Below, one piece after another: positions 12,230-30,312 of a stretch of 64,000 bases of DNA. The stretch covers positions 1-64,000 of the forward strand of contig DXJL01000056.1 in assembly GCA_019057635.1 (NCBI GenBank), in the 5' to 3' direction. Every line of letters starts with the position of its first letter. The stretch's first letter is position 1. The DNA is from Candidatus Heimdallarchaeota archaeon (GTDB taxonomy: Archaea > Asgardarchaeota > Heimdallarchaeia > Hodarchaeales > Hodarchaeaceae). Made by a program: the position numbers and the translations under genes. A model generated the notes under the pieces. It was not told the origin of the DNA. It saw only the letters and a program-made list of their open reading frames with translations, and did not search any database.

Positions 12230-13003
12230 TCAAAAAAAAACAAATTCTATTGTTTTCTGTTCTGAGTCCGCCCATGTAGCTTTCTTTGACTTTACCATGA
12301 GTTTCATAATAACAGCGAGATCCTTAGGTGGAAGGGATGACCAAGACTGATTCATTTTGACCATATCATAAAGGGTGATCATTTCAAATCCGTTTTGGAA
12401 GGAATAATTGAAAATTTCCTCAGCAAAAGAATTAAGGGTCTTCCAGTATACCCTAAGTCGTGTTTCATCCGTATCCCACCACGAGGCCTTTTCCTGCTCA
12501 ATTAAATACTCAGAAATAGTTTTTAATTGGGAAATTGATAACTTTTTGTGAAGAACTCCATTTTGAAATGGGTAAACTAAGCTAACTTCCTGGAGATCGA
12601 GTATATGCTGATTTAACACACGTGCAAATGCAAGTAAAAAATCCCCCCAGGTTAGCAACCATTGTCTTTTTAATTCAGGATCTTCTGGAATCATCCATCG
12701 CCATGGCTTCGTCACCCAACCAGGTAAAATCGGTTTTACATTAGGATGAACGGTACCAGGTTTTAGCTCAGCTAATGAAATTCGTTCGGATTTCACTGTT
12801 ATCGATTGTTCGACCTTTGATAGTGATTTATGAAACTGTGAATATGGTAAAGCATTGGATAAAGATTTTTGTTTGATTCTTGGAGCTACTATCTTGTTTG
12901 GTTTCGGTCTGTCTGTTGTCACTTCCTGAAGTACATCTTCAAGTACATCAACTGAAGTTTTTTTCTTGTCAACCTTTTCCTTCTTTCGTTGTAATTCGGC
13001 CAT
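12230..13003 (-). CDS. vps25: ESCRT-II Vps25-like protein with N-terminal extension
   Basis: KRQWLLTWGDFLL, YPF, KASWWD...LRVYWKTLNSFAEEIF tandem winged-helix pattern, directly downstream of vps4. Confidence 0.85.
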   Translation of the reverse strand: MAELQRKKEKVDKKKTSVDVLEDVLQEVTTDRPKPNKIVAPRIKQKSLSNALPYSQFHKSLSKVEQSITVKSERISLAELKPGTVHPNVKPILPGWVTKPWRWMIPEDPELKRQWLLTWGDFLLAFARVLNQHILDLQEVSLVYPFQNGVLHKKLSISQLKTISEYLIEQEKASWWDTDETRLRVYWKTLNSFAEEIFNYSFQNGFEMITLYDMVKMNQSWSSLPPKDLAVIMKLMVKSKKATWADSEQKTIEFVFF

Positions 13004-13045
13004 CCATTAACAGCTCATAAATCGGTAAAGATGGATGAGGTTTTT

Positions 13046-14188
13046 CTACCCTCCAAATTTATCGCGCCATTCATCATATCGCGCAAGCTCATCCGGAGCG
13101 ACTGAGGGACGAATATGCATCATGGCATTATGAAAATCAACTGCTTTCGGAGCTCGTACTTGTACACTCATATCAGTTAGGGCCCCTTCTGCATCCAGTT
13201 CACGAATCGGTTGCATCAAGGATTCACGACACACTAGAGCGATATCTGCCGCCGTATATCCCCCTGTAATTTCAGCTAATGCTTTAAAATCAACATCTAT
13301 ACCCATGGGAATCCCTTTTGTATGAATTGAAAATATTACTTCCCTTGCTTCCCTTGCTGGGAGTGTTACATAAACACGACGTTCAAAACGTCTACGCATT
13401 GCAGCATCGATATCCCAAGGCGTATTCGTTGCTCCTATAGTGACCAGTAGTTCATCACCAGTATCAAAGCCTTCTACTGCTTGTAATAGTTGTGTTTTCA
13501 CTCTTCGCATTGCCTCTCCTTCAGAACTCCCACCTCGTGTTCCTGCCAACGCATCAATTTCATCAAAGAAAATTATGGACGGGGCTTCTTCTACTGCTCT
13601 TTCATAGAGTTCATTTACGAGCTTTTCTGACTCCCCCAACCACTTACTTATTAAATTCGCTGCACTTACTGAAAAAAAGGTTGAATCCACTTCAGAAGCT
13701 ACCGCCTTACATAGATAAGTTTTCCCACAACCAGGGGGACCATACATCAGAATTCCTTTCCATGGTTTACGTGCACCTTTGAATAAATCAGGTCGAGACA
13801 TAGGTAAGATGACGGCTTCTCTTAATGCACGTTTAGCCCCCTCCATTCCTGCGACGTCTTCCCACTTCACGTTTGGTTTCTCTCGAACGATAACACTTGA
13901 AATGGCATCTGAAATTTCGTCACTTTTTGGGGATGGAGCGGAAGAAGGGGTCGGGGGTTCAGATGGTTCGATTATTCCTCGAATTTCCTTCACACGTAAA
14001 ATATATTCCATTGCTTTGTGATAATAGAGATTTTTCATATTTGGATCGTCAGTAAAATTTATTAGTTTTTGTAACTGTTCAGCTGCAGATACATAGTATT
14101 TGACTGCTTGCTGAGTCTGTCCACTTTGATCCAGCTTATAAGCCAAGCTAGCATTCTTTTTAGCTGCTTCAAATAAAGGAGAACCCAT
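13046..14188 (-). CDS. vps4: Vps4 AAA ATPase (MIT plus AAA)
   Basis: N-terminal MIT helices, GPPGCGKT, SKWLGESEK, FFDEID, DAAMRRRFERR. Confidence 0.96.
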   Translation of the reverse strand: MGSPLFEAAKKNASLAYKLDQSGQTQQAVKYYVSAAEQLQKLINFTDDPNMKNLYYHKAMEYILRVKEIRGIIEPSEPPTPSSAPSPKSDEISDAISSVIVREKPNVKWEDVAGMEGAKRALREAVILPMSRPDLFKGARKPWKGILMYGPPGCGKTYLCKAVASEVDSTFFSVSAANLISKWLGESEKLVNELYERAVEEAPSIIFFDEIDALAGTRGGSSEGEAMRRVKTQLLQAVEGFDTGDELLVTIGATNTPWDIDAAMRRRFERRVYVTLPAREAREVIFSIHTKGIPMGIDVDFKALAEITGGYTAADIALVCRESLMQPIRELDAEGALTDMSVQVRAPKAVDFHNAMMHIRPSVAPDELARYDEWRDKFGG

Positions 14189-14240
14189 AGTATCACCACG
14201 TAAACATACTTACCTACTTAAGAAGAAAAGTGATTTGTAG

Positions 14241-14855
14241 TCAGCTTTTCTTTATTTTTTCTAGTTCTTTTTGTAATTCTTGGGACCGGATATCGGGAGA
14301 AGGAAGACCAAAATCAGCTGTAGCTGCTTTAGACGCGCTTATCTCTCCAAGAATTTTTTCAACCACTTCATCTTCTTCTCCATCGGTTGTCATCATCTCA
14401 AATCCTTCATCCATTGCTTCTGTCGCAATATCAACTCGCTCTGTTTCGATTTCCATTTGTTGAAGAACACCTTCAAGCTGTGGAATTTTTAATTCGGCAT
14501 TCATTGTATGAAGTGTGCGTACGAGTCCTTTCAAATCCTTACCGATTGCTTGTGTAGCAGCTGCTTGTTCTAACTTAAACTTGATCCCTTTTACCCTGCT
14601 AGCCATTTGTTGGCATGCGCGGGCCATATTCCGGTTTTTGGCTACATCCTTTGCTAATAGTCTAGCAGTTGACATATCACCATCTTCTATGGATTTCTCA
14701 ACTTCTTTTAACATATTTTTTTCTTCTTTTAGCAATTTTTTCCGTTGACGTAACATTCGTTTTTCAACCATTCGAAGTCGAACGATCCACTTCCGTGTAG
14801 AACCGGCTCCACTTCCTCCACCTTTAAGCCATTGACCAAATTTATCAAAAACCAT
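14241..14855 (-). CDS. ESCRT-III subunit, Vps2/24/46 class
   Basis: Amphipathic N-terminus MVFDKFGQWLK, GDMSTARLLAKDVAK, MIM1-like C-terminus ELQKELEKIKKS. Confidence 0.92.
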   Translation of the reverse strand: MVFDKFGQWLKGGGSGAGSTRKWIVRLRMVEKRMLRQRKKLLKEEKNMLKEVEKSIEDGDMSTARLLAKDVAKNRNMARACQQMASRVKGIKFKLEQAAATQAIGKDLKGLVRTLHTMNAELKIPQLEGVLQQMEIETERVDIATEAMDEGFEMMTTDGEEDEVVEKILGEISASKAATADFGLPSPDIRSQELQKELEKIKKS

Positions 14856-14857
14856 GT

Positions 14858-15538
14858 TTATGACCTCAAACCTTCTTCAATCTGTTTCCGCATCTCATCT
14901 AATTTCTTTTTGTCTGCTTCACGTTTTTTTCCAGTGGTGTTTTCTGATATTGGAGAACTAGGTGTTGCAGGAACACTTGTTTCACTTGCTGGAAGAGAAC
15001 TCGATGATAATTCCGCTTCTAATTCCGCCATTTGCATAGATATTCGATCATCTGCTTCAACATCCATTCCGATTTCAGTTATCGAGGTATCTGTAAGAGA
15101 GTCCTCCATATCTGAAACCATTTCTATGGAATCCTCTAAGGACATCATTACTTCTTCTGTCCTTTCAGGTGAAGCTGCTTCAACATTGCTATCAATTGCA
15201 ATTTGTGCCTGCGCTAGTGTCTCTGTTAAAGTAACGTTATCTGCAGAAATATCAAGCGTTTCAATGATACGTTGTAAGTTTGCTATCTTGCTATGAGTGT
15301 TCGTTGTCTGGGTCAAATATAGCTCACGTCGCTTCAGAGCTTGTTGAGCTCCAGGTTTGTTCCCAGATTTTAACAGTTTACGTGCTAACTCATATTGCTC
15401 ATCAGATTGCCTTGAATAGTTTTTTACCTTTATTTCCATTTGATTTATAGTTCTTTTTAACTTCGCTTTTGTTTCAGTTGATGAAGATGGTTTCGATCCC
15501 GTTAAAAACCCTTTAAGTCGTTTCACTTGTATTTTCAA
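14858..15538 (-). CDS. ESCRT-III subunit, Snf7/Vps20/32/60 class
   Basis: GNKPGAQQALKRRELY, acidic C-half, Pro-rich MIM2-like SVPATPSSP. GTG at 15526 is an alternative start. Confidence 0.92.
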   Translation of the reverse strand: MKIQVKRLKGFLTGSKPSSSTETKAKLKRTINQMEIKVKNYSRQSDEQYELARKLLKSGNKPGAQQALKRRELYLTQTTNTHSKIANLQRIIETLDISADNVTLTETLAQAQIAIDSNVEAASPERTEEVMMSLEDSIEMVSDMEDSLTDTSITEIGMDVEADDRISMQMAELEAELSSSSLPASETSVPATPSSPISENTTGKKREADKKKLDEMRKQIEEGLRS

Positions 15539-15737: not shown

Positions 15738-16457
15738 CTATCCTACGCCTGGAAATGATATTAATACACCATCTAAGGTATTAGATTTGATTGCTACTTT
15801 TTTATCTATCAACACTTCTATAGATCGTTCTACTCGTTCTATTGTCCAAGTTGATTTTTGAACTAATTCAGTCATTGAAAGCTGGCCATTAGCCTGTGCT
15901 GCCAACTCAAGTATACGTTGATGATCTTGTGTCAGTTCTGGGTCAGTAAACTCGATAATTTTCATTCCTACGAGTGTTCGTATCTGATGAATTAATCCAT
16001 TCGAAGTTAAAAGTTTCAAAGCGTTATTGACGTCTGAAATAGAAACCACAATTCCTTTACTTTCATCATTAAGCTTCAAGATTAATTCTGATACGCTTAA
16101 GATACCCCCTGTATGATTCCGTATCTGTTTACCAATCTCTATAATTCTTAGTCCTAAATAGTTAATATATTCATCATTTCCCTGCAATCGTGATTTGAAT
16201 GAAGGTCTATTACCTACATCATATATTCCAATTGCAAGAGGAAGTCCTAATTCCTCCCTTAGTTCCATAACCTTTTGGGCAAGGTCAGGATTCTTCTTAA
16301 TATCAGAGTTGTACTGAGATTCAAGCTTCTGAAGTTCCTTGTGTAAATTTCTTATTTTTTTACTCATCTCTTTGAGAGACAAGAGGGCCAATTGACTACC
16401 CTTTACCTTCATTGCCGCTTCCTGAGTTATTTTCTCTTCTATACGTCTAAGGCCCAT
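15738..16457 (-). CDS. ESCRT-II Vps22/Vps36 (EAP30)-like protein
   Basis: MGLRRIEEK N-terminus, YLGLRIIEIG...TGGILSVSEL, SISDVNNALKLL, ELTQDHQRIL, WTIERVERSI. Confidence 0.9.
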   Translation of the reverse strand: MGLRRIEEKITQEAAMKVKGSQLALLSLKEMSKKIRNLHKELQKLESQYNSDIKKNPDLAQKVMELREELGLPLAIGIYDVGNRPSFKSRLQGNDEYINYLGLRIIEIGKQIRNHTGGILSVSELILKLNDESKGIVVSISDVNNALKLLTSNGLIHQIRTLVGMKIIEFTDPELTQDHQRILELAAQANGQLSMTELVQKSTWTIERVERSIEVLIDKKVAIKSNTLDGVLISFPGVG

Positions 16458-16797: not shown

Positions 16798-18144
16798 TTG
16801 GGTCTTAGTTCGTCTTCTTCTGAGTCGACGGGTTACTGTTCCTTTTGTGGTTCAGCACTCGTTTCTTCGGAGGTACACAAGTGTTTAGATTGTGGTGCTA
16901 CTTTTTGTCAACAATGTGCAACACGATCTCTTATGACTGGTTCCCGACTCAAGTGTTCCTGTGGATCACCAAATATTGACGCTTTTGACCACATTAAAAA
17001 TGGAAAAGCGGACTTATTAGAAGAAATTTTCGTCCTTAAACGATCTCTCAAGCACGTAGGATATCGTCCTGTTATTCTCTTAAAACGAACTGGCCAATTG
17101 GAGTCAAGATTACGTTCCTTTCGCAAACAATTTCTCATCCCTGGCAATTTGATTGACAAAATCTTTCTAGAGACAAAGAAAATTGAAAATTTTACTTTGA
17201 ATGAATTTCAGGAATATGCTTCAAAGCTCCAAAGAATCTACCATAATGTAGTACGTCACCCAATATCGGAGAATTCTTTTCGTAACTCATCTTTGCAAAT
17301 CTCTCTATTTCAAAAACATATAGCGAGCTTTGATCAGACGGTTGTATCGAAGCTTGAAACCATCTCCGCGCTTATAGAACAAGTAGAGAAAAAATGTGAT
17401 TTATTTGATGAAACACGAAAACACTTAGCCCGATGTCTCGATATTTTTGTTTTAATCCCAGGTGAATTGGGTATTGGCTATTTTTCAAATTTAGATCTAC
17501 ATAATGATAGCTTTAGGAAGACTACTATTGATTTAATTATTACAACGGATAGGATTGTATTACTTCAGAAAAAGAGAACTAATGTTTTAAGCCATAAAAC
17601 TATCATTTGCGATGAATTCTCTCCCAAAGCGCTACTGGATGTACAAAAAAAGAATTCTGGATTTTTAAAGCGGGATAAGCTTTTAATAACTGCTATTAAA
17701 CGAGATTTTGTCATACAGTCTGATGCTCAAAATCTTATTCGGATATTCAATTCACTAAAGTTGAGTTATCTGGGTCGTCCAAGTGACTTGTATATCAATG
17801 AACCATTCCGTGATTGGTCTTCGGAAATTTATCAGGAAAAAATCCTTTCAGCATTAAATTTTCAGAACCATAAAAGTACCCCATCTTCCTCCAATAAGCA
17901 TCCAAGTAAGAATCCAGAGAATATCCCAGATTTTATTAATGGTTTTTTAGAGGAAAGACTACGAGACTTGCGAATTCATGAACTTGCATCAAAACGAGCT
18001 TTACAGGAACTAAAAGAAGGCCGTAAAAAAGTAGCGGGTCGTGAATATTTCGAACTCTTGAAACAATTTGAATTTGAATTAGCGAAAATTGCTGAAGAAA
18101 GGACAGAGCTGCTTATAAGAACTGGTAAAACTAATCTTTTATGA
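16798..18144 (+). CDS. Hypothetical protein: Cys-rich Zn finger, coiled coil, PH-like domain, steadiness-box-like helical C-terminus
   Basis: CSFC..CLDCGATFCQQC..CSC; DLIITTDRIVLL and GFLKRDKLLI; REYFELLKQFEFEL. Domain calls are by eye. Confidence 0.7.
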   Translation: MGLSSSSSESTGYCSFCGSALVSSEVHKCLDCGATFCQQCATRSLMTGSRLKCSCGSPNIDAFDHIKNGKADLLEEIFVLKRSLKHVGYRPVILLKRTGQLESRLRSFRKQFLIPGNLIDKIFLETKKIENFTLNEFQEYASKLQRIYHNVVRHPISENSFRNSSLQISLFQKHIASFDQTVVSKLETISALIEQVEKKCDLFDETRKHLARCLDIFVLIPGELGIGYFSNLDLHNDSFRKTTIDLIITTDRIVLLQKKRTNVLSHKTIICDEFSPKALLDVQKKNSGFLKRDKLLITAIKRDFVIQSDAQNLIRIFNSLKLSYLGRPSDLYINEPFRDWSSEIYQEKILSALNFQNHKSTPSSSNKHPSKNPENIPDFINGFLEERLRDLRIHELASKRALQELKEGRKKVAGREYFELLKQFEFELAKIAEERTELLIRTGKTNLL

Positions 18145-18153
18145 GAACGATTC

Positions 18154-18774
18154 TTATAGATTTTTTAGTTCCCTTCTAAAGTCAGAAAGCCAGCGAGAAC
18201 CTTGTAATTCTAATTTCTTAATCTCCTTGTTTTTCAATAATTGTCCTGGTTTTTGTTTATCCATCCAGTTAATCCACTGATTTATGTCCTGTGTTACCCA
18301 ATGATCATTTCCATACATTGGTGCTCTAACTACAATATCGTGAATTTCATCAAGATAGGGTAACACTCGATCAACAGTTGCGATTGATTCTAAGTGTAGA
18401 AGATCTAGTAATTCAATCGCATTGGCTACAAACTCCGCAGCAATTGTTGGAAGTTTCTTTATGCTTGAATAATCAATTCGACTATAAGCATTATCATCGG
18501 CTCCTTCAGTCATTTTGAGTTTTGAAAGACCCGAAGGGAAAAGTTGGCTAATTCCTTCTTCTTCAATAAATCGATCAACATCAAAATTATACTGTTCTAA
18601 CTCTGAACGTGTCTTTATAATACTAGTTAGAAGGGTTCTATGCTGTTTATGATATGTACTCGAATCGATCTCTCCACGATCATAAGTACGTGAAATTAAA
18701 TCGAGGGTCCCAATATTCGCAAATAATCGGGCTTCTAGATCCCATCTGTGTGATAAGTTTTGAGGAAATGACAT
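18154..18774 (-). CDS. vps28: ESCRT-I Vps28-like protein
   Basis: ARLFANIGTLDLISRTYDRGEIDSSTY and AEFVANAIELLDLLHL. Confidence 0.88.
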   Translation of the reverse strand: MSFPQNLSHRWDLEARLFANIGTLDLISRTYDRGEIDSSTYHKQHRTLLTSIIKTRSELEQYNFDVDRFIEEEGISQLFPSGLSKLKMTEGADDNAYSRIDYSSIKKLPTIAAEFVANAIELLDLLHLESIATVDRVLPYLDEIHDIVVRAPMYGNDHWVTQDINQWINWMDKQKPGQLLKNKEIKKLELQGSRWLSDFRRELKNL

Positions 18775-23092: not shown

Positions 23093-24133
23093 TTAAGAAT
23101 CAAAAGTTACTTGGAACTTCAACGGTTTAGACAAAGAGGGATCTATTACACGAACAATATCTGCAGATTTTAGTACCGTCGATAATTTTTCCTTGGAGGA
23201 GTCAATTTTTACTGTTCCATGGATCATGACCATTTCCTTTCCAAGATTGAAAGAATAACGTAACTGAGTAACAAAATCATTGATTTGTTGGTCTAATGCT
23301 GATCTTACAGGAATTGCATTCAGTTGATATTCACTAGAGCATACAAAGCAGTTTTTACGCCTTGAAAGTTCGATAGCAGTAAATACTCCAACTGAACCAT
23401 CCCAAAATAAGTAATCTTTGAGTGGTGATAATTTTAAGAGGATTTTCAACGCTTCTTGAGCCATTAATCCTCCTATCACAAACGATACGCTTGAGACTGA
23501 TGGAATATTCTCTTCTGCAGGTTCTTCTTGACGAACTTCTTTTCTTCCCTCCCCAAAAGGAGTACAAGCTTTCTGTAATTCTTCTTCTGGGATTAATGAT
23601 TGACACTCCAAGCATGCATTCTCATGAGGGATTATTACCTGTATGTTTCCTAAGAATCCAAACATTCCTCCTGAAACTAATGGAATGTTATGTTCAACAA
23701 TATATGAATTGACCCATCTTCGATCAATGAATGTATCCAACCCTTCTACAATAACAGATACTGATTCCAAGTCAGATTGTGGAACATCCTGTATCTTCAT
23801 GTTAAGTGCTGTAATTTTTAACTCGGAATTAATTTTCAATAACTCTCGAGTGGCTACTTCTACTTTAGATTTACCAATATCATCCATTCGGAATAGTAAT
23901 TGCCGATTTAAATTACTTATTTCGATCGTGTCAAAATCAACTAATATAAACTCTCCTACTCCCGCCATTGCTAGTGAAACAGCTGCTACTAATCCTAATG
24001 CACCCATCCCTACTATTATAACCTTACCTTCACGAATTTTATCCTGATTCCAATTTTCTATCAAAACTTGCCTGTCATAGCGAATAGTTTGGGAATCGTG
24101 AGTAAATATATCCATTTTTCCTACCCGAATCAA
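23093..24133 (-). CDS. Ubiquitin-activating E1-like enzyme (ThiF/Uba) with C-terminal extension
   Basis: RYDRQ, GMGALG, DFDTIEISNLNRQ, CLEC/CFVC Zn sites, candidate catalytic Cys in KACT, UFD-like tail. Confidence 0.93.
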   Translation of the reverse strand: MIRVGKMDIFTHDSQTIRYDRQVLIENWNQDKIREGKVIIVGMGALGLVAAVSLAMAGVGEFILVDFDTIEISNLNRQLLFRMDDIGKSKVEVATRELLKINSELKITALNMKIQDVPQSDLESVSVIVEGLDTFIDRRWVNSYIVEHNIPLVSGGMFGFLGNIQVIIPHENACLECQSLIPEEELQKACTPFGEGRKEVRQEEPAEENIPSVSSVSFVIGGLMAQEALKILLKLSPLKDYLFWDGSVGVFTAIELSRRKNCFVCSSEYQLNAIPVRSALDQQINDFVTQLRYSFNLGKEMVMIHGTVKIDSSKEKLSTVLKSADIVRVIDPSLSKPLKFQVTFDS

Positions 24134-24338: not shown

Positions 24339-24581
24339 TTAACGAACTATTCCGCCAGTTGTTCTTGTAATCATATATAATTTATCTAGATCTTCTATCC
24401 CTGCTGATTTTAAGGTCTCGCTCTCATCAAGCTGCTTCCCCTGAAATACAAGAATGACTGAACGAGCAGGAATTCGTTTTTGTTGAGCAACTCGCTCTTT
24501 AATTGATGCCAAAGATTCTGTTTTCTCACAGGTGAGCGTAATCTGTCCTCCTCCAATTGCCTGAACGATATTTATCTGCAT
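24339..24581 (-). CDS. Ubiquitin-like protein with propeptide (GG followed by IVR)
   Basis: MQINIV..., IKERV, ILVFQGKQLDESETL, RTTGG-IVR. Confidence 0.93.
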   Translation of the reverse strand: MQINIVQAIGGGQITLTCEKTESLASIKERVAQQKRIPARSVILVFQGKQLDESETLKSAGIEDLDKLYMITRTTGGIVR

Positions 24582-24760: not shown

Positions 24761-25561
24761 CTATTCATCATCATCTGCTTCGAGAAATATTATCCCGTCA
24801 TTTGTGATCTGAAATGTCAATGTTTTAGTAGTATGTTTTGTTCCTCTCATTTTACTGATTCTGAGGATTCGCATCATTTCTCCTCGTACTGACAGCATAT
24901 CCAGATGAATTATCGAATCGGCAATATACTCTTCTCCAAAGATCGAAGTGCCTGTATTACTTGGTAATTCTGATATTGCGAGTGTGGTTACATTTAGTGA
25001 AGCAATATTAGCTAAAAAGCCTGTAGTTAATTTCCTTAAGAAACCCTGATCATTACCATAGTCATAAAATCGAAATGCCGCTAGAGGGTCAATAACAATG
25101 CGTTCAATTTTCTTTTCTTCCACAACTTGACTTATATGATAAAAGACTCTATGTAGGAATGTTGGTAAGGAAGTCTCATCATATGGCACACCTTCGGCTT
25201 CAATGACAAAAGGAGAGCCTTCTGTTAAATTAAGACTATCAGGATCCCATAATTCCCAACCTGAAGGAGTAAAATCAAGCATAACTATTTTTTCTGGTTC
25301 AACATAGTGATTATGATCAAAAAAAGAAAAATTACTCGCATCACGACGAATAGCCCATGGAGGTTCCTGCATAGCTACAAGTAGACCATTTTCATTCTTT
25401 AATGCTCCTTCTGACAGAAAATGCAATCCGAAGATAGTTTTTCCAGCTCCAGCAGGTCCAATAATCAGATTTGTTGTACCTTTGATAAGGCCGCCTTGTG
25501 TAAGCTCATCTAAATAAGGAATACCACTAGTTACTCGTATTTTTTCGAACAAGTGTAGCAC
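24761..25561 (-). CDS. KaiC/RAD55-family RecA-superfamily ATPase (single domain)
   Basis: SGIPYLDEL, GPAGAGKT, RIVIDP, EEYIADSII, ISKMRGTKH. Confidence 0.92.
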   Translation of the reverse strand: MLHLFEKIRVTSGIPYLDELTQGGLIKGTTNLIIGPAGAGKTIFGLHFLSEGALKNENGLLVAMQEPPWAIRRDASNFSFFDHNHYVEPEKIVMLDFTPSGWELWDPDSLNLTEGSPFVIEAEGVPYDETSLPTFLHRVFYHISQVVEEKKIERIVIDPLAAFRFYDYGNDQGFLRKLTTGFLANIASLNVTTLAISELPSNTGTSIFGEEYIADSIIHLDMLSVRGEMMRILRISKMRGTKHTTKTLTFQITNDGIIFLEADDDE

Positions 25562-25741: not shown

Positions 25742-26311
25742 TCAAATTTGGGTTTGCTCAACCACAACTTTACGATATTTTATCATTTCTTCTACTAGAT
25801 ACTCAAAAGCTACTTCAAGATTTTCACCACTTCGAATCCCACCAGGATCTGTCGCTACAGTGCCAAAAATTTGATATGCATACTCCTTTAGATGAGCTTC
25901 AACAAATGCTTTGTGAATAAAGTCTGGAGATAATGCTATAGGTAAGTCCTGTTTATTTGCTATTACTAAGATTGGTATCTTGCCAGGTATTAAACGTAAT
26001 GCTTCATCTAACCACTGTTCATCGTATCTAAAGTTTCTTTGTGAACTATCTATGACAAAAACAATTCCATCAGCAGTACGAACAAAGCGTTCATGATACC
26101 GCATATCTAAAAATCTCTTCTGCCCGCCCACATCGATTAAACCCAATAACGTAGATCCAATCTCGACATGAGAGATTCCAAAGGCAATCGTTGGTTTTAT
26201 ATTACCTGGTGCGGGATAACCATGTTCTAAGTAAAAGGCGATGGAGGATTTTCCCACTCCACTTGTACCGAGTAATATTACCGAGAATATGTTTTCAGAT
26301 GATGTTTGCAT
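25742..26311 (-). CDS. Arf/Sar-like small GTPase
   Basis: GTSGVGKS, KPTIAF, DVGGQ, GIVFVIDS, ANKQDL. Confidence 0.9.
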   Translation of the reverse strand: MQTSSENIFSVILLGTSGVGKSSIAFYLEHGYPAPGNIKPTIAFGISHVEIGSTLLGLIDVGGQKRFLDMRYHERFVRTADGIVFVIDSSQRNFRYDEQWLDEALRLIPGKIPILVIANKQDLPIALSPDFIHKAFVEAHLKEYAYQIFGTVATDPGGIRSGENLEVAFEYLVEEMIKYRKVVVEQTQI

Positions 26312-26535: not shown

Positions 26536-26931
26536 TTGTGGATTAAAATGGATAAAAAATCTCGTGAAATCAAAATTGAATCTTTGAAAACTCCAAAAGG
26601 AGACGTACCGACTGTTAAAGGATTGGAAACGGTAATTGATTCAGTCTTTTCTGAATATGGAAAAATAGAAAACAGGTTCAATATGCTTCAACAAAAATTG
26701 GAAACCGTTTCAAAAGAAATCGCGAGTCAATCAGGTCTCATAACCGATCTGAGTAAAAGTTTCTCTGATTTAATTGTAATATTAGGAAATTTAGACCGTA
26801 AAATTGAACAACAGCAATCTATTACAACCAATAACCGACATATTGAAACAATTGATTTATTAACATTGAAAAAGGACTTATCACGGATTCTCAGCAAATT
26901 AGAGTCGCTAATGACAACAAATGAGAGGTAG
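26536..26931 (+). CDS. Hypothetical coiled-coil protein
   Basis: Heptad-rich 131-aa ORF. First gene of a three-gene plus-strand run that includes the RING protein. Confidence 0.65.
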   Translation: MWIKMDKKSREIKIESLKTPKGDVPTVKGLETVIDSVFSEYGKIENRFNMLQQKLETVSKEIASQSGLITDLSKSFSDLIVILGNLDRKIEQQQSITTNNRHIETIDLLTLKKDLSRILSKLESLMTTNER

Positions 26932-27022: not shown

Positions 27023-27235
27023 ATGAAAGGGAATCGAATAAAATTAATTTCTCGCCCCATTGGAAACTGGGATCCATTTCAAACCTCCTCACGGTGTATT
27101 ATCTGTTGGAAGCCTGTTAAAGATAACGATCCATTAATGGAATGTCCCCACTGCCATAGTAGAGCCCATCAAGAACATATGCTACGTTGGTTAGCAAAGA
27201 AGAATTATTGTCCTTACTGCAATAAAAAGTGGTAA
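27023..27235 (+). CDS. Small RING-finger protein (E3-like)
   Basis: CIIC-x12-CPHC-x4-HQEH..WL..CPYC. GGAG SD upstream. Confidence 0.88.
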   Translation: MKGNRIKLISRPIGNWDPFQTSSRCIICWKPVKDNDPLMECPHCHSRAHQEHMLRWLAKKNYCPYCNKKW

Positions 27236-27236
27236 T

Positions 27237-27692
27237 ATGAACGAAATAACGTACTTACCTATAGTTCTCCAAGAACTGGTACAGGCACTAGAAAATCATC
27301 TGGACCAATTAACACCAAATCGCAAAAGAACATTACCTGTTAAGATAAAGAAACAGAATCAAAATACCATTATAACTTGGAATATCTACTCTGAGCCTCA
27401 AAAGGAAATTACAGGAATATTCTCTGATTTACAGAAAATAATTTCACAAATTCTTGAACAACCTCTAGATGGCGAGCTCATTTATTTTGAAATTAAAAAG
27501 GGTCAAATTATTGATGCAGGAATTAATGCTTTTTCCATTAAACAAGGTTTTTCTTGGGATTTATACCTTTACCAACCTGAAACGTTTGTATACGTACGTT
27601 TGCTACATGAAACAAATCTTGACAGTTGTATCGATGCATGGATTTCAATTGATATTGACCTAATTGAAAACTCTGCTTGGTTTCTTGATTGA
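27237..27692 (+). CDS. Hypothetical protein
   Basis: 151-aa ORF starting 2 nt after the RING stop codon. Confidence 0.65.
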   Translation: MNEITYLPIVLQELVQALENHLDQLTPNRKRTLPVKIKKQNQNTIITWNIYSEPQKEITGIFSDLQKIISQILEQPLDGELIYFEIKKGQIIDAGINAFSIKQGFSWDLYLYQPETFVYVRLLHETNLDSCIDAWISIDIDLIENSAWFLD

Positions 27693-27702
27693 AGAAATGA
27701 CT

Positions 27703-28647
27703 TCAGATAATGCTCCATCGTTTTGAATGAATTTCATAATGGGTACGGCCCTCATTCTCCATCTCCCTTAGAAACGCCGTTACAGTTGTTGATGCCACTC
27801 CTAACTCTTCAAATGGGGAATCCCAAGATATTCCAATAGTGTTAAGGTATTCTTCGGCGATGTAATAGGTTTTCGCTTCTCCTACACTTACAAGTATATC
27901 ATATATTGTATCTTTCGTGTGTTTGTGCTCAAATATCAAATTGTGCAGGTATAAATCGAAAGGATGTGGAACAGGACTCTGGTGAGCAGGACAAATAATA
28001 TCTGTAGATAAATTAGACAACATTTTCAGCACTTTCAACCGTTTCTGAGAATCTCCAGTACCATCTATGAAGAATGAGGCAGGTTTTTCTGGAGCAATAT
28101 TTCCTTCATCGCCTATGAATGTACACTTGGCTGAATAGGCTTGAATTAAGAGAGAATCTTTAGAATGTCCCCCTGTTGATTGCAAAATTAGTTCTTCAGA
28201 CCCTAAATCAATTGTTTCACTATCACTAATACGTGTAATGAGTTCTTCTTTTACTTTCCCAATTTTTGAGAAGAGAGATGATTTCATTGCTAACCTAAAT
28301 TTTGAAGGATTTGGGAATTGCTTATCCAATATATATTTTTGTCCTTCGGTTAGGGCTTTTATTCCTGACTCATGAATTACGATTTGTGGTTTTATCTTTG
28401 ATAGTGCGCTAATACCCGCCCAATGATCAGGATGAGTATGGGTTAGAATTATGTATTTGATATCCGAAGTATCTCTACCTGCTTTTTTAATGAAAGAAAT
28501 TATGTCCTTTCCAACGGATCTCGAGGGTAAATCAATTATTGCTATCTTTTCCCCCATGACCAAATAGCTAGCAAATTCTTCTTTTTGTTTACCTGTTTTC
28601 CCTATAATCCGAAATACTCCAGGAGCCCATTCTACGAAGTTCCCCAT
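27703..28647 (-). CDS. MBL-fold metallo-hydrolase
   Basis: THTHPDHWAG, GGHS, FIGD and PAH motifs. Confidence 0.9.
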   Translation of the reverse strand: MGNFVEWAPGVFRIIGKTGKQKEEFASYLVMGEKIAIIDLPSRSVGKDIISFIKKAGRDTSDIKYIILTHTHPDHWAGISALSKIKPQIVIHESGIKALTEGQKYILDKQFPNPSKFRLAMKSSLFSKIGKVKEELITRISDSETIDLGSEELILQSTGGHSKDSLLIQAYSAKCTFIGDEGNIAPEKPASFFIDGTGDSQKRLKVLKMLSNLSTDIICPAHQSPVPHPFDLYLHNLIFEHKHTKDTIYDILVSVGEAKTYYIAEEYLNTIGISWDSPFEELGVASTTVTAFLREMENEGRTHYEIHSKRWSII

Positions 28648-28820
28648 AATTGTTCACACATTTCATAGTAAAGTGTTTTTTTACGTTTAATATCCTCTAA
28701 ATTTCTTTATTAATGCCTTTCGGTGGAGGAGGTAGGATTTCTGTTTAGGATTTTCTCTGCAACAATAAAGGATAATTTTTAAAAAGAATCACTAGAATCA
28801 AGATCGTATACGAGAGTCCT

Positions 28821-29852
28821 TTGAGGGATACCATATTGAACTTAGACGAATTAATCGAACATGGTTTTATTCCTGTAATTGATCCTACTACACCTGATTC
28901 GCTTGCAGGCCAAGGAGCAAATGCGTTTCTTGCCGAGTACGGAGGAGTGGTTGAAGAAGTAGCGCTTGTTTGCAAGAAAGAGGATGGATTGGTGACTTTT
29001 CGAAGTGGAGCGGCGCCTAGTGATCGAAATTATGAAAACTTCTTTACAGATTTTACAGAATTGGCGAATGATCTTGGTATGAAAACCCATGCATTTTCGT
29101 ATGCCTTTGGTGATTCATATCTCGGATCGGATCCGAATTATTCAATTGGTCGCTCTGATGGCACTCTAATGACTACATATGTCGACCCCAGTATGGAGGG
29201 ATACTGGAAACATCTGAGCCAAATATCTCGTGAAGTGGCCCGTAAACCCATTCGATCATTAGTTCTGCAAGAATTTCTCTTCCCGAGACAGGAATTTTCA
29301 TTTTCGAAAAGAGCAGTTCGAAAATTTGCGGAATTATCAGGTGTAAGTCTTGATACCAGCTACCTAGATATCCAGAAGGACCCTTCTATTCAACGAATGT
29401 TTGAAGATTGGCGTGTTGATCTTATCAGTAGAGCATTTCGTCAAACAGTCGAGAATGCAAGAAGCGAACGACCTAGCTTAGATATTGGCATGGTTGTCCC
29501 AGTGGATCCTGAAACTGAATGGCACGAAGGATTTATTCGTCATTATGGGATAAATCTGGATAGAATTATAGAAATTTGTGGATATGTAATATATCATATC
29601 ATGCCTTATTCTCCCATGTATCCAGAACCTGGTACACCGAGTTGGGATGCTTTAACTCATGCACTTCGTAGTTCAACTCTCTATGAAGAAAGTGGATATA
29701 AAAAAGCATTATTTGTATGGGGATTAGATGCAGAAGATGACATAACTTGGTTAGAGACCTTAAAACAGGAAGTCAAGGCTGATAAAATCTTTGCGAGACT
29801 TGAATATCCTGAAAAATATTCAGTCAAGCGGGAAATTCATCGAGGAGTTTAG
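28821..29852 (+). CDS. TIM-barrel glycoside-hydrolase-like protein (GHL10/DUF4015-like)
   Basis: LVCKKEDG, LGMKTHA, YVDPS, FEDWRVDLISR, HYGINL and IMPY pattern. Confidence 0.6.
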   Translation: MRDTILNLDELIEHGFIPVIDPTTPDSLAGQGANAFLAEYGGVVEEVALVCKKEDGLVTFRSGAAPSDRNYENFFTDFTELANDLGMKTHAFSYAFGDSYLGSDPNYSIGRSDGTLMTTYVDPSMEGYWKHLSQISREVARKPIRSLVLQEFLFPRQEFSFSKRAVRKFAELSGVSLDTSYLDIQKDPSIQRMFEDWRVDLISRAFRQTVENARSERPSLDIGMVVPVDPETEWHEGFIRHYGINLDRIIEICGYVIYHIMPYSPMYPEPGTPSWDALTHALRSSTLYEESGYKKALFVWGLDAEDDITWLETLKQEVKADKIFARLEYPEKYSVKREIHRGV

Positions 29853-29859
29853 ATTCCAT

Positions 29860-30312
29860 CTATTTTTGATTCCAGTGGGCATAGCGTCGAATATAATCCA
29901 GAACCTGATTTCGAAATACATTCTTGTTCCGTTTCCATTGACGTGCTGCGGTCGCGTTAAGCGGATCCTCTGGATTGGGACTAGTTAAAAGAAATCGAAT
30001 TGTTTCGACAACCTGTACCAAGCTATATGCGGGACTCCAATCCTTTCCAAGAACACCTACACACACTTTCTCCCTGAATATATTCACATGCCAAATAGGG
30101 GTTTTAAATCGTACCTTAGGTGGTTCAAATGGGTAACTCCGAGGAATTTTTATTTCTATTACAAATACACCACCCTCATATAACCCCGAACCAAGGATTT
30201 CTCCTTTCCAAAAAGTTAAATCATTATTCACTGATCGGAAGGTAGGTTGTTCCCGAGTTAGTTCTTGAGCTTCAATTGCGAGTCGATCTAACCATTCTTC
30301 TTCCGTTAGCAT
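29860..30312 (-). CDS. Ubiquitin-conjugating enzyme E2
   Basis: YEGGVF, YPFEPPKVRFKTPIWHVNI, catalytic Cys in VCVGVL, WSPA, PNPEDPLN. Confidence 0.96.
   Translation of the reverse strand: MLTEEEWLDRLAIEAQELTREQPTFRSVNNDLTFWKGEILGSGLYEGGVFVIEIKIPRSYPFEPPKVRFKTPIWHVNIFREKVCVGVLGKDWSPAYSLVQVVETIRFLLTSPNPEDPLNATAARQWKRNKNVFRNQVLDYIRRYAHWNQK

What the first reader, a model, noticed from the sequence alone, without database searches (positions are those of the whole stretch)
12230..30312. Ubiquitin-ESCRT supercluster interleaved with a candidate membrane-identity module
Seen: within 18 kb, ESCRT-I/II/III/Vps4 and Ub/E1/E2/RING co-occur with a longin-like/Rab-like fusion, a Yip1 protein, an Arf-like GTPase, a PAP2 phosphatase and a Zn-finger/PH-like protein. 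A PI-kinase/HipA-fold kinase lies 3.4 kb further on. Established: Asgard Ub-ESCRT clusters are known. In eukaryotes, Yip1 binds Rabs, longin domains act as Rab GEFs, and phosphoinositide readers recruit ESCRT. Inference: the locus may encode the upstream GTPase and lipid targeting layer for ESCRT, that is, a proto-endosomal sorting system.
Basis: partly seen in the sequence, partly recalled or inferred. Interest (0 to 1): 0.75.

Follow-up and report, generated by a model that had tools for sequence, protein, structure and literature searches.

The report
Hodarchaeal ubiquitin-ESCRT cluster with Yip1 and GTPases
This is the ubiquitin-ESCRT gene cluster of a Hodarchaeales-type Asgard archaeon. 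A Yip1-type membrane protein embedded in it turns out to accompany the ubiquitin genes in many Asgard lineages, which makes it a testable candidate for how this machinery is tied to membranes.

Summary
Observation confirmed. Pfam places every named gene at the stated coordinates: ESCRT-I/II/III, Vps4, Ub/E1/E2/RING, an N-domain+Rab-like fusion, Yip1, an Arf-like GTPase and PAP2. The Zn-finger protein folds as Zn-ribbon, coiled coil, PH domain and helical hairpin. The "kinase" is unsupported (HipA_C E=0.032).

Interpretation partly supported.
- **Genus synteny:** gene order is kept in 18 of 18 same-genus loci, but so are the flanking rpS2 and RimK, so this proves little.
- **Yip1:** across the phylum, 17 of 41 Pfam Yip1 matches (15 of 28 genomes, 10 of 17 families) lie within 10 kb of Ub/ESCRT genes, against about 0.6-0.9 expected. 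Most sit directly next to E1.
- **GTPases:** longin+Arf-like GTPase fusions flank the cluster in two other families. The host genus also has a second Rab-Roadblock-Roadblock-Yip1 module elsewhere.
- **No support beyond the genus:** PAP2 (missing in 4 of 18 genus loci, 0 of 39 elsewhere), the Arf-like gene, KaiC and MBL.

A 2023 preprint already mentions Yip1 and a Rab-like GTPase in the Hodarchaeia cluster, and the Zn/PH protein matches the published Znr_PH_CC_SB. My library searches found no report of the phylum-wide Yip1-E1 link. No protein interaction could be tested.

The parts
12230..13003 (-). Vps25 (ESCRT-II)
   Evidence: Pfam ESCRT-II, E=6e-16. Present in every genus locus that reaches it.
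13046..14188 (-). Vps4 AAA ATPase (MIT+AAA+Vps4_C)
   Evidence: Pfam AAA E=7e-40, MIT, Vps4_C.
14241..14855 (-). ESCRT-III (Snf7 family), copy a
   Evidence: Pfam Snf7, E=1.4e-16.
14858..15538 (-). ESCRT-III (Snf7 family), copy b
   Evidence: Pfam Snf7, E=1.5e-11.
15738..16457 (-). EAP30 (Vps22/36-like ESCRT-II)
   Evidence: Pfam EAP30, E=8e-20.
16798..18144 (+). 448-aa protein with Zn ribbon, coiled coil, PH domain and C-terminal helical hairpin; candidate ESCRT-I accessory subunit of the Znr_PH_CC_SB type
   Evidence: Seven invariant Cys plus C40 at 90% or more. AF2 model with mean pLDDT 75.8: three helices at 65-212, seven strands plus a helix at 225-325, a hairpin at 378-442. Foldseek hits PH domains, including Vps36 PH 2cay at E=4.5e-4. 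Described type: PMC11188069, section 6.
18154..18774 (-). Vps28 (ESCRT-I)
   Evidence: Pfam VPS28, E=2.8e-11.
18784..19527 (-). UEV-Vps23-like ESCRT-I subunit
   Evidence: Pfam UQ_con E=7.6e-14 and UEV E=7.9e-5.
19720..20934 (-). Fusion of a longin-like N-domain (about residues 88-210) with a Rab-like GTPase (220-395); no C-terminal Cys
   Evidence: Pfam Ras, E=3e-36. In the AF2 model the N-domain has 10-residue-block mean pLDDT 74-91 and topology b-b-a-b-b-b-a-a. Top Foldseek hits are Rab7, Rab4, Rab1 and Sec4. hhalign against Asgard longin domains gives P=0.0018. Found in 18 of 21 other genus genomes.
21135..22139 (-). PAP2 lipid-phosphate phosphatase; accessory, variable occupant of this slot
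   Evidence: Pfam PAP2, E=1.4e-20. Across 18 genus loci it is on the same strand in 6, on the opposite strand at 26-34% identity in 8, and absent in 4. It is a third paralogue that G002, G016 and G001 lack.
22324..23073 (+). Zn-ribbon+Yip1 polytopic membrane protein, convergent with E1 across a 19-bp gap
   Evidence: Pfam Yip1, 47.2 bits against a cut-off of 28.6, plus DZR. Hydropathy gives 4 segments, one long enough for 2 TM helices. Linked to Ub/ESCRT in 10 of 17 families. Tree.
23093..24133 (-). E1 (ThiF family)
   Evidence: Pfam ThiF, E=9e-59.
24339..24581 (-). Ubiquitin
   Evidence: Pfam ubiquitin, E=4.5e-15.
24761..25561 (-). KaiC-like ATPase, paired with the Arf-like GTPase upstream
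   Evidence: Pfam KaiC, E=2e-45. In this genome 3 of 4 KaiC-like ORFs have a small-GTPase ORF within 0.9 kb.
25742..26311 (-). Arf-like small GTPase, at the head of the ArfL-KaiC-Ub-E1 same-strand string
   Evidence: Pfam Arf, 68.6 bits. Present in 14 of 14 genus loci that reach this position. No clear orthologue beside the cluster outside the genus.
26536..26931 (+). 131-aa coiled-coil protein beside RING; the conserved uncharacterised cluster member
   Evidence: HMM hits beside RING in families f8, f9, f17, f18, f19, f20, f22 and f25. Probably the asCOG005522 protein described in 10.1101/2023.07.25.550441, section 5.
27023..27235 (+). RING E3
   Evidence: Pfam zf-RING_2, E=5.8e-7.
27237..27692 (+). 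151-aa unknown protein; start follows the RING ORF end (incl. stop) by 2 bp
   Evidence: No Pfam or NCBIfam hit. Homologues lie beside E1 or Yip1 in f18, f22 and f23.
27703..28647 (-). MBL-fold hydrolase; genus-level neighbour only
   Evidence: Pfam Lactamase_B, E=1.7e-14. NCBIfam hits are all far below their cut-offs. No hit in loci outside the genus.
28821..29852 (+). 343-aa unknown protein
   Evidence: No Pfam hit. Homologues near Ub/UEV in f9 and f12. The f9 homologue has a weak GHL10 hit at E=5.9e-4.
29860..30312 (-). E2 (UQ_con)
   Evidence: Pfam UQ_con, E=1.8e-35.

Best explanation
**What the locus is.** It is the ubiquitin-ESCRT supercluster of a Hodarchaeales-type Asgard archaeon.

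**Shown.**
- One copy each of Ub, E1, E2, RING, UEV-Vps23, Vps28, a Zn-ribbon/coiled-coil/PH/hairpin protein, EAP30, Vps25 and Vps4, plus two ESCRT-III genes.
- A Zn-ribbon+Yip1 five-TM-type membrane protein that accompanies the Asgard ubiquitin operon in many lineages. The tree points to an old, possibly ancestral, association.

**Lineage-specific additions.**
- A longin-like+Rab-like GTPase fusion, placed directly upstream of UEV-Vps28 on the same strand.
- An Arf-like GTPase+KaiC-like pair, upstream of Ub-E1.
- A dispensable PAP2.

**Inferred mechanism.**
1. E1, E2 and RING ubiquitylate membrane-associated targets.
2. UEV-Vps23 and Vps28, together with the PH/Zn protein, read ubiquitin and the membrane.
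3. ESCRT-II, ESCRT-III and Vps4 remodel the membrane.
4. The Zn-ribbon+Yip1 protein is the membrane-embedded platform of this system.
5. In this genus Yip1 works with the Rab-like GTPase, whose built-in longin-type domain acts as its regulator, so that a GTP switch sets where or when the machinery assembles.

PAP2, MBL and the distant 'kinase' are not part of the mechanism.
For: **Core genes:** Pfam; all single-copy in this genome.

**Yip1 linkage.**
- 17 of 41 Pfam Yip1 matches, in 15 of 28 genomes and 10 of 17 families, lie within 10 kb of Ub/ESCRT genes. Chance expectation is 0.6-0.9.
- Immediate Yip1-E1 adjacency occurs in f1, f2, f8, f13, f17, f19 and f25.
- Yip1 lies directly upstream of UEV-Vps28 on the same strand in f2 (L052) and f6 (L040).
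- Linked copies fall in two supported Zn-ribbon+Yip1 clades, 98/98 and 89/84.
- The Zn ribbon is nearly invariant.
- Control: the genus-level flanking genes rpS2 and RimK appear in 0 of 39 loci outside the genus.

**Yip1-GTPase coupling.**
- The second Yip1 paralogue of the genome sits in a Rab-Roadblock-Roadblock-Yip1 string. Both Roadblock genes and Yip1 are kept in 14 of 14 genus loci, with one Roadblock copy only partial in L112. The Rab gene is kept in 13 of 14.
- That Rab groups near the fusion's GTPase domain in the tree.
- In f2 locus L073 the order is RING, Yip1, E1, then a GTPase fragment whose best match is the fusion's profile.

**Longin+GTPase beside ESCRT elsewhere.**
- Proteins with Fuz_longin_1 (27.7 and 27.1 bits; cut-off 26.1) plus an Arf-like GTPase lie about 5-6 kb from Vps28. 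This holds in 3 of 3 f8 genomes that have Vps28 and in 2 of 3 f25 genomes.
- A RING+GTPase fusion sits inside the f25 ubiquitin operon.

**N-domain fold:** AF2 10-residue-block mean pLDDT 74-91 with longin-type strand and helix order; hhalign P=0.0018 against Asgard longin domains, compared with 0.096 against Roadblock.

**PH protein:**
Against:
- Yip1 and E1 are mostly convergent, so they are not co-transcribed.
- Ub-ESCRT clusters exist without any Pfam Yip1 match in the genome in f18 and f20 (2 genomes each). Yip1 is unlinked in f3, f4, f5, f7, f12, f23 and f28.
- Pfam Yip1 also matches in 7 of 14 control genomes, including E. coli, so the family is not eukaryote-like in itself.
- The fusion's N-domain has no Pfam hit even at E<=10 and no PDB sequence hit. 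It is essentially confined to one genus.
- The GTPase lacks the C-terminal cysteines on which eukaryotic Yip1-Rab binding depends (for the sequence; the dependence is recalled knowledge).
- ESCRT-adjacent GTPases in f3 are not orthologous to the fusion.
- Among 78 other Rab-like GTPase loci from metagenomes, none carried Yip1, ubiquitin, RING, E2 or ESCRT-I/II/III genes; one carried a weak E1-like hit. Many of these contigs are short.
- Genus synteny also covers rpS2 and RimK, so it is not specific evidence.
Confidence: 0.5

Rival explanations
1. Yip1 belongs to the ubiquitin module only, for example as a membrane anchor, adaptor or substrate of E1/E2/RING, using its cytosolic Zn ribbon. The GTPase genes (longin-like+Rab-like; Arf-like+KaiC) are separate signalling modules that happen to be inserted in this genus's cluster.
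For: - The tightest and widest linkage is Yip1 with E1, in 7 families. It is not with any one GTPase lineage.
- The GTPase paralogues beside the cluster differ between families.
- Arf-like+KaiC-like pairs recur away from ESCRT: 3 of 4 KaiC-like ORFs in this genome are GTPase-adjacent, and 8 metagenome loci carry GTPase-Roadblock-KaiC-KaiC without Ub or ESCRT.
- The Zn ribbon is kept in nearly all linked Yip1 proteins.
Against: - Both Yip1 paralogues of the genus sit beside a Rab-like GTPase that has a longin- or Roadblock-type partner.
- Longin+GTPase fusions flank clusters that also carry Yip1 in f8 and f25.
- The Zn ribbon is also present in unlinked Yip1 proteins and in the Rab/Roadblock-linked paralogue, so it is not specific to ubiquitin linkage.
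Confidence: 0.25
2. Neighbourhood by descent only. The non-ESCRT, non-ubiquitin genes, Yip1 included, are passengers kept by slow rearrangement, or by transfer of the cluster as a block, and have no functional tie to it.
For: - Within the genus, housekeeping rpS2 and RimK are kept beside Vps25 just as faithfully.
- PAP2 comes and goes.
- MBL, KaiC and the Arf-like gene are found beside the cluster only in the genus.
- Yip1 is convergent with E1.
- Clusters without Yip1 exist.
Against: - Yip1 remains beside Ub/ESCRT in 10 of 17 families, while the other flanking genes are not shared between families (0 of 39 loci for rpS2 and RimK).
- Chance expectation is 0.6-0.9 linked matches against 17 observed.
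- In f2 and f6 Yip1 is co-directional and directly upstream of UEV-Vps28.
Confidence: 0.15
3. One reading: a proto-endosomal identity layer in which PAP2 and a PI-kinase-like enzyme set lipid identity, a PH reader decodes it, and Rab/Arf/Yip1 recruit ESCRT.
For: - The PH fold of the 448-aa protein, with invariant basic residues R240, K241, R252 and K259 (plus R260 at 90% or more) around strands 1-3.
- The PAP2 sequence shows catalytic-type motifs (the motif definition is recalled).
- The 380-aa gene stays 3-15 kb from the cluster in 13 of 14 genus genomes where both are on one contig.
Against: - PAP2 is absent in 4 of 18 genus loci and in all 39 loci outside the genus. Its nearest NCBIfam models are polyprenyl-diphosphate and PGP phosphatases, far below their cut-offs.
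- The 'kinase' has only HipA_C at E=0.032 and no PDB match. It is genus-only and is separated from the cluster by MetRS.
- I know of no reported phosphoinositide system in these archaea (recalled knowledge, not searched).
Confidence: 0.07

Closest known systems
Asgard ubiquitin-ESCRT gene clusters (Hatano et al. 2022, PMC9192718; Lu et al. preprint 10.1101/2023.07.25.550441)
   Same: Same core set and sub-operon logic: Ub/E1/E2/RING; a coiled-coil protein followed by UEV-Vps23, Vps28 and EAP30; and Vps25, Vps4 and ESCRT-III. A close same-genus relative, B3_Heim (its Yip1 is 84% identical, and its contig length equals that of G002:C10), is among the genomes named in the Fig. 1C legend passage of PMC9192718 that I read. 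[quoted passage not shown]
   Different: PMC9192718 contains 'GTPase' 0 times and 'Yip1' 0 times. The preprint reports Yip1 only for Hodarchaeia. It does not mention the N-domain of the GTPase, the Arf-like/KaiC pair, PAP2, or Yip1 beside E1 in other lineages.
Znr_PH_CC_SB candidate ESCRT-I protein (Makarova et al. 2024, PMC11188069, section 6, read in full)
   Same: Zn ribbons, a PH domain, a coiled coil and a C-terminal helical hairpin, encoded among ESCRT-I and ESCRT-II genes.
   Different: Here the domain order is Zn ribbon, coiled coil, PH, hairpin, and eight Cys suggest two Zn sites rather than three ribbons. Homology to their family was not tested directly, because their accessions and supplements were not available to me. 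My genus profile found it in 0 of 39 loci outside the genus, apart from an 18-bit match in L067.
Eukaryotic Yip1/YIPF proteins
   Same: A Pfam Yip1 domain above the cut-off and a multi-spanning membrane topology with a cytosolic N-terminus, plus genomic association with Rab-like GTPases.
   Different: It has an N-terminal Zn ribbon. The partner GTPases lack prenylation cysteines. Pfam Yip1 also matches bacteria and other archaea. Orthology with eukaryotic Yip1 was not tested.
Asgard longin- or Roadblock-fused small GTPases (Tran et al. 2024, PMC10933270; passages read)
   Same: An N-terminal longin-type domain fused to a small GTPase.
   Different: The published fusions belong to the Rag/Arf-like class, whereas this one carries a Rab-like GTPase domain. 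That paper states that MK-D1 GTPase genes are generally not in operons with Roadblock or longin genes, and it does not mention ESCRT. Here the fusion lies within the ESCRT cluster, and a Rab-Roadblock-Roadblock-Yip1 string also exists.

Membership tests
Asgard Ub-ESCRT cluster | Ub, E1, E2 and RING E3 encoded together | tested here: met
   Pfam ubiquitin, ThiF, UQ_con and zf-RING_2, all within 23093-30312.
Asgard Ub-ESCRT cluster | ESCRT-I (UEV/Vps23, Vps28), ESCRT-II (EAP30, Vps25), ESCRT-III (Snf7 x2) and Vps4 with a MIT domain | tested here: met
   All are single-copy in the genome.
Yip1 (PF04893) | Pfam score above the gathering cut-off | tested here: met
   47.2 bits against 28.6; 46.7 bits.
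Yip1 (PF04893) | Five transmembrane helices with a cytosolic N-terminus (recalled definition) | tested here: inconclusive
   A Kyte-Doolittle scan gives 4 hydrophobic segments, one of 41 residues that could hold two helices. No topology predictor was run.
Yip1 (PF04893) | Binds Rab/Ypt GTPases | not testable with these tools
Rab GTPase | Small-GTPase G motifs and closest structural match to Rabs | tested here: met
   GDGAVGKTS, TIGAD, DLAGQ, NKxD and SAK are invariant in 19 sequences. The top 7 Foldseek hits (ranks 1-7) are all Rab or Sec4 chains, and most of the 50 listed are too.
Rab GTPase | C-terminal cysteine prenylation motif (recalled definition) | tested here: not met
   The C-terminus reads ...FFESAKK and none of the 19 orthologues has a Cys there. 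It should therefore be called 'Rab-like', not a Rab.
Longin domain | b-b-a-b-b-b-a-a fold (recalled definition) | tested here: met
   AF2 elements: E91-98, E103-108, H112-131, E140-142, E146-153, E157-164, H169-183, H195-210, with 10-residue-block mean pLDDT 74-91. The fold could not be checked by fold search on its own, because the GTPase domain dominated the hits.
Longin domain | Sequence-profile match to a longin family | tested here: inconclusive
   No Pfam hit at E<=10. hhalign against four Asgard longin domains gives P=0.0018 and probability 15% over 96 columns; two of those four pass Fuz_longin_1, and the f28 one scores 37.3 bits. Against Roadblock, P=0.096.
Arf family | Pfam Arf above the cut-off | tested here: met
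   68.6 bits against 22.3.
Arf family | N-terminal amphipathic helix or Gly2 (recalled definition) | tested here: not met
   Only about 9 residues (MQTSSENIF) precede the first strand, and there is no Gly2. It should therefore be called 'Arf-like'.
Znr_PH_CC_SB | Zn ribbons, PH domain, coiled coil and steadiness-box hairpin | tested here: inconclusive
   The Zn-binding Cys, three long helices, PH fold and a C-terminal helical hairpin are all present. The hairpin's identity as a steadiness box, and homology to the published family, were not tested.
PAP2 | Pfam PAP2 above the cut-off, with an intact catalytic motif | tested here: met
   73.8 bits against 27.2. KxxxxxxRP, PSGH and SRxxxxxHxxxD-type strings are visible in the sequence (the motif is recalled).
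HipA / PI-kinase-like kinase (380-aa gene) | Profile or structure match to a kinase family | tested here: not met
   HipA_C scores 14.3 bits against a cut-off of 30.5, E=0.032. No NCBIfam hit and no PDB sequence hit.

The most novel reading that the evidence does not exclude
The last common ancestor of the sampled Asgard lineages already coupled its ubiquitin-ESCRT machinery to a membrane-embedded Zn-ribbon+Yip1 receptor and to longin-regulated small GTPases. On this reading, the eukaryotic logic of a GTPase switch, a Yip1-type membrane factor and ubiquitin-dependent ESCRT sorting predates eukaryotes. It survives most completely in Hodarchaeales, where a longin-like+Rab-like fusion is wired directly upstream of ESCRT-I.
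Probability: 0.22. Interest if true: 0.85.

Novelty: new variant of a known kind. Interest (0 to 1): 0.6.

Why it matters
How Asgard ESCRT is targeted to membranes, and what it sorts, is an open question. The published work I read covers only the soluble Ub and ESCRT proteins.

- **A membrane-embedded candidate.** A polytopic membrane protein that has stayed beside E1 or ESCRT-I in ten Asgard families is a concrete candidate for the missing membrane link. It is directly testable by pull-down, two-hybrid, liposome and heterologous-localisation assays.
- **GTPases assigned to a pathway.** Published work notes that Asgard GTPases are hard to match to regulators or pathways from genome layout. In Hodarchaeales-type genomes, the longin-like+Rab-like fusion and the second Rab-Roadblock-Roadblock-Yip1 module are rare cases where layout does suggest a pathway.
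- **If the coupling is real,** part of the Rab/Yip1/ESCRT logic moves back before eukaryogenesis.
- **If it is not,** the locus is an ordinary Ub-ESCRT cluster with passengers.

Tried and rejected
- **PAP2 as a core member: rejected.** It is absent from 4 of 18 genus loci. It is a third paralogue that G002, G016 and G001 lack. It is absent from all 39 loci outside the genus.
- **Kinase claim: not supported**. The gene is genus-only and lies at a variable 3-15 kb.
- **Roadblock origin of the fusion's N-domain: no support.** hhalign gives P=0.096 and probability 0.6%. No Roadblock genes were found in loci L031-L090.
- **Pfam Longin (PF13774) in the own genome:** no match, but the control matched nowhere either, so this is uninformative.
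- **Orthology of the f3 ESCRT-adjacent Rab-like GTPases with the fusion: rejected** on a FastTree topology without support values.
- **Wider homologues of the N-domain.** A HMMER scan of 1.84 billion representatives gave 2 clusters. The second, P0002, has the same architecture. Its lineage was not found among 71 class genomes, where only the g1 fusion loci matched (about 30% identity), plus two weak hits near E=3e-4 in f5 and f7. It was also not found in metagenome contigs (nothing, only 2 full-length genus fusions among 80 loci).
- **Fold search of the fusion model** returned only GTPase hits, so it says nothing about the N-domain.
- **DH-PH resemblance of the 448-aa protein:** TM-scores are only 0.16-0.32 with rmsd around 20 Å, so I read it as 'helices plus PH' and not as a GEF.
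- **RNA evidence:** no RNA holder was listed.
- **Earlier-findings tool:** **Protein atlas:** closed or did not hold the sequence.
- **Supplements** of the cited papers were not seen. The supplementary neighbourhood tables of PMC11188069 and PMC9192718, and Fig. 1b of the 2023 preprint, may show Yip1 or GTPase genes that I could not check. Eme 2023 and Liu 2021 were not read.
- **Correction:** my note says '19 of 21'. The correct count is 18 of 21.

Full report
**1. What is at the coordinates.**

- Vps25, Vps4 (MIT+AAA+Vps4_C), two Snf7-family ESCRT-III genes and EAP30;
- a 448-aa Zn-finger protein, Vps28 and a UEV/UQ_con protein;
- a 404-aa protein with a Ras/Roc domain at residues 220-395, behind 214 residues that have no Pfam match;
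- PAP2, Yip1 with an N-terminal zinc ribbon, a ThiF-type E1 and ubiquitin;
- a KaiC-like ATPase, an Arf-like GTPase and a RING protein;
- two short unknown proteins (131 and 151 aa), an MBL-fold hydrolase, a 343-aa unknown protein and an E2.

In the host genome (3.19 Mb, 214 contigs) profiles built from these genes find the ESCRT and ubiquitin genes only here, one copy each. Record titles of close relatives read 'Candidatus Hodarchaeota', 'Candidatus Hodarchaeum mangrovi' and 'Heimdallarchaeota archaeon B3_Heim'. The window therefore comes from a Hodarchaeales-type Asgard archaeon.

**2. Synteny inside the genus, and why it proves little.**

The fusion gene is full length in 18 of 21 other same-genus genomes, at 54-96% identity. 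I fetched 18 loci around it.

tblastn shows the order rpS2, Vps25, Vps4, ESCRT-III x2, EAP30, Zn/PH protein, Vps28, UEV, fusion, [PAP2], Yip1, E1, Ub, KaiC, Arf-like, u131, RING, u151. This holds in every locus as far as its contig reaches; MBL, u343 and E2 follow in all such loci except L024 and L027. Counts:
- fusion, 18 of 18;
- Yip1, 16 of 16 loci that reach its position;
- Arf-like, 14 of 14 loci that reach its position.

Two more full clusters turned up in metagenome contigs.

The housekeeping neighbours rpS2 and RimK are kept just as well. Conservation at this depth therefore cannot separate function from inertia.

PAP2 is the unstable element. It is on the same strand as the fusion in 6 loci, on the opposite strand at only 26-34% identity in 8, and absent in 4. 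The 4 include the closest relative, whose fusion protein is 96% identical. The window's genome has three PAP2 genes, whereas G002, G016 and G001 have only the other two.

**3. Beyond the genus: Yip1.**

I located Vps28 (PF03997) in 97 of 141 Asgard genomes. I fetched 39 loci of about ±10 kb from 20 other families and scanned them with profiles built from the genus orthologues. I then searched Pfam Yip1 in the same 40 genomes and fetched 20 further Yip1 loci.

Result: 41 Yip1 matches in 28 genomes. Of these, 17 matches, in 15 genomes and 10 of 17 families, lie within 10 kb of ubiquitin or ESCRT genes. For a generous 40-60 kb target the chance expectation is 0.6-0.9. The Poisson tail is below 1e-15 and a family-level binomial gives about 1e-10. 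These tails overstate the case, because related genomes are not independent.

The arrangement is specific.
- **Beside E1.** Yip1 abuts E1 in families f1, f2, f8, f13, f17, f19 and f25. The two genes are usually convergent, with gaps of roughly 0-75 bp.
- **Upstream of ESCRT-I.** Yip1 lies directly upstream of UEV-Vps28 on the same strand in f2 (L052) and f6 (L040).
- **Near Ub.** Yip1 lies 1-8 kb from Ub in f9 and f22. One f9 locus carries a Wukongarchaeum record title.

The genus-level flanking genes rpS2 and RimK occur in 0 of these 39 loci.

A maximum-likelihood tree of 35 Yip1-domain proteins puts the linked copies in two supported clades, 98/98 and 89/84, plus one unresolved row. Most members of these clades carry the N-terminal CPxC-x10-CPxCG ribbon. 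Weak Pfam matches without a ribbon fall outside the clades and are unlinked.

Against an obligatory role:
- f18 and f20 have full clusters but no Pfam Yip1 match anywhere in the genome;
- f3, f4, f5, f7, f12, f23 and f28 have unlinked copies;
- Pfam Yip1 also matches 7 of 14 control genomes.

**4. The GTPases.**

*The fusion itself.* Its GTPase domain has Rab-type motifs but no C-terminal cysteine in any of 19 orthologues. The best Foldseek matches are Rab7, Rab4, Rab1 and Sec4.

*The N-domain.* Over residues 88-210 the AF2 model has 10-residue-block mean pLDDT of 74-91, with the strand and helix order b-b-a-b-b-b-a-a. That is the longin order as I recall it. Sequence support is weak:
- no Pfam hit at E<=10 and no PDB sequence hit;
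- hhalign P=0.0018 against four Asgard longin domains, compared with 0.096 against the genome's Roadblock proteins.

A scan of 1.84 billion representative proteins found the N-domain in only two clusters, both with the same fusion architecture.

*Outside the genus.* Small-GTPase ORFs lie within ±10 kb of Vps28 in 11 of 39 loci, from families f3, f8, f23 and f25. With 13-45 GTPase matches per genome in this class, that is not clearly above chance. The f3 copies are also a different paralogue. Two observations are more specific.
- In f8 and f25 the flanking gene is a Fuz_longin_1 (27.7 and 27.1 bits; cut-off 26.1) + Arf-like GTPase fusion. It lies about 5-6 kb from Vps28 in 3 of 3 f8 genomes with Vps28 and in 2 of 3 f25 genomes.
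- The f25 ubiquitin operon also holds a RING+GTPase fusion.

*A second Yip1-GTPase module.* The window's genome has a second Zn-ribbon+Yip1 paralogue on another contig, in the string Rab-like GTPase, Roadblock, Roadblock, Yip1. Both Roadblock genes and Yip1 are kept in 14 of 14 genus loci, with one Roadblock copy only partial in L112, and the Rab gene in 13 of 14. In this genus both Yip1 paralogues therefore sit beside a Rab-like GTPase that has a longin- or Roadblock-type partner.

*The Arf-like gene.* It appears to form a pair with the KaiC-like ATPase.
- 3 of 4 KaiC-like ORFs in the genome have a GTPase ORF within 0.9 kb.
- 8 unrelated metagenome loci show GTPase-Roadblock-KaiC-KaiC.

*A negative control from the GTPase side.* Of the 78 metagenome Rab-like GTPase loci that are not the fusion, none carried Yip1, ubiquitin, RING, E2 or ESCRT-I/II/III genes; one carried a weak E1-like hit. 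Many of those contigs are only 1-5 kb.

**5. The Zn/PH protein.**

Seven Cys are invariant and C40 is kept in at least 90% of sequences. The AF2 model (mean pLDDT 75.8) shows three long helices at 65-212, a seven-strand-plus-helix domain at 225-325 and a helical hairpin at 378-442.

Foldseek matches PH domains: DH-PH modules, neurofibromin Sec-PH, Lam6, GRK2, and Vps36 PH (2cay) at E=4.5e-4. This fits the Znr_PH_CC_SB candidate ESCRT-I protein of Makarova et al. (PMC11188069, section 6, read in full). The domain order differs, and homology to their family was not tested directly.

Invariant R240, K241, R252 and K259 (and R260 at 90% or more) lie around strands 1-3. This is compatible with a head-group pocket, but that is inference only.

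**6. The 'kinase'.**

The 380-aa gene beyond MetRS has only a sub-threshold HipA_C hit, no NCBIfam hit and no PDB hit. It is found only in the genus, at 3-15 kb from the E2 end of the cluster in 13 of 14 genomes where both lie on one contig. I do not count it as part of the system.

**7. Literature.**

[quoted passage not shown] It also describes the coiled-coil protein beside RING.
- Hatano 2022 (PMC9192718; passages read) contains 'GTPase' and 'Yip1' 0 times.
- The two Asgard Arf papers have no neighbourhood analysis that involves ESCRT.
- Tran 2024 (PMC10933270; passages read) describes longin- and Roadblock-fused GTPases. It says GTPase genes in MK-D1 are generally not in operons with such regulators.
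- Searches for Asgard+ESCRT+Yip1, Asgard+Yip1+ubiquitin+Rab and Yip1+Asgard (8 papers) found no report of Yip1 beside E1 outside Hodarchaeia. Supplements and several subscription papers could not be seen.

**8. Reading.**

- **Shown:** a complete Ub-ESCRT supercluster, and a Zn-ribbon+Yip1 membrane protein that accompanies the Asgard ubiquitin/ESCRT-I genes in many lineages, an association the tree suggests is old.
- **Moderately supported:** longin-type+GTPase fusions recur at these clusters, and in this genus Yip1 and Rab-like GTPases form a module.
- **Not supported:** PAP2, MBL, the kinase and a lipid-identity layer.
- **Inferred:** Yip1 is the membrane platform of the system and the Rab-like fusion is its switch.

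No interaction, lipid-binding or expression evidence could be obtained.

Noticed in passing
Own genome, contig C189:27837-31140 (L097/L100), outside the window: A same-strand string of a Rab-like GTPase (177 aa), two Roadblock/LC7 genes and a second Zn-ribbon+Yip1 paralogue. A ParA/MinD-like 563-aa gene lies upstream. The Roadblock proteins are 82-100% identical across the genus, whereas Yip1b is only 31-73% identical.
   Followed up: yes
Window 24761-26311; own genome C67:19712-23321 and C31:42282-43632; metagenome loci L161, L162, L164, L181, L187, L190, L219, L221: KaiC-like ATPase genes sit next to small-GTPase genes in 3 of 4 cases in this genome. Eight metagenome loci show GTPase-Roadblock-KaiC-KaiC. 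This looks like a recurring GTPase/KaiC signalling module. One literature search found no direct description.
   Followed up: partly
L074:9947-10678 (family f25): A 244-aa protein that fuses a RING finger to an Arf-like GTPase. It is encoded inside the E1-E2-Ub-RING operon, at the position where the window has its Arf-like gene, divergent from the u131 homologue.
   Followed up: partly
L043:15039-15956 and L044:15064-15981 (f8); L067:15632-16519 (f25): Proteins of about 300 aa with a Mon1/Fuzzy/HPS1-type first longin domain plus an Arf-like GTPase, 0.7 kb past ESCRT-III in f8 (L043/L044) and about 4 kb past UEV in f25 (L067). These clusters have Yip1 at the other end.
   Followed up: partly
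Window 21135-22139 and the matching slot in L013-L030: The slot between the fusion and Yip1 holds a full-length PAP2 in either orientation (6 same strand at 48-72% identity, 8 opposite strand at 26-34% identity) or nothing (4 loci). This points to an inversion with fast divergence or a replacement, plus repeated loss.
   Followed up: partly
Window 27237-27692 (u151) and 28821-29852 (u343): Two proteins with no family assignment recur at Ub/ESCRT or Yip1 loci in other families: u151 in f18, f22 and f23; u343 in f9 and f12. The f9 u343 homologue has a weak glycosyl-hydrolase-like-10 hit (E=5.9e-4).
   Followed up: partly
Window 16798-18144: The best Foldseek hits of the Zn/PH protein model are DH-PH RhoGEF modules (Dbs, Asef, FARP2, Tiam1, Trio, Vav1) over 300-370 columns. 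TM-scores are only 0.2-0.3, so this is probably just 'helical bundle plus PH', but it may be worth a proper structural comparison.
   Followed up: no
L067:17592-19403 (f25): A 604-aa protein with a Vps36_ESCRT-II (PF11605) hit followed by EAP30, and an 18-bit match to the window's Zn/PH protein profile. It is a possible Vps36-like ESCRT-II subunit with an N-terminal extension.
   Followed up: no
Own genome C150:6486-8294, C82:10636-13911 and C82:17069-18118: Further E1-like/E2-like gene pairs and a second EAP30-like ORF outside the cluster, near several small-GTPase and Roadblock genes on C82.
   Followed up: no
Window 27703-28647: The MBL-fold hydrolase matches beta-lactamase models only far below their cut-offs (for example 47 bits against 240). 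It is a generic MBL-fold enzyme and there is no sign that it is a resistance gene.
   Followed up: yes
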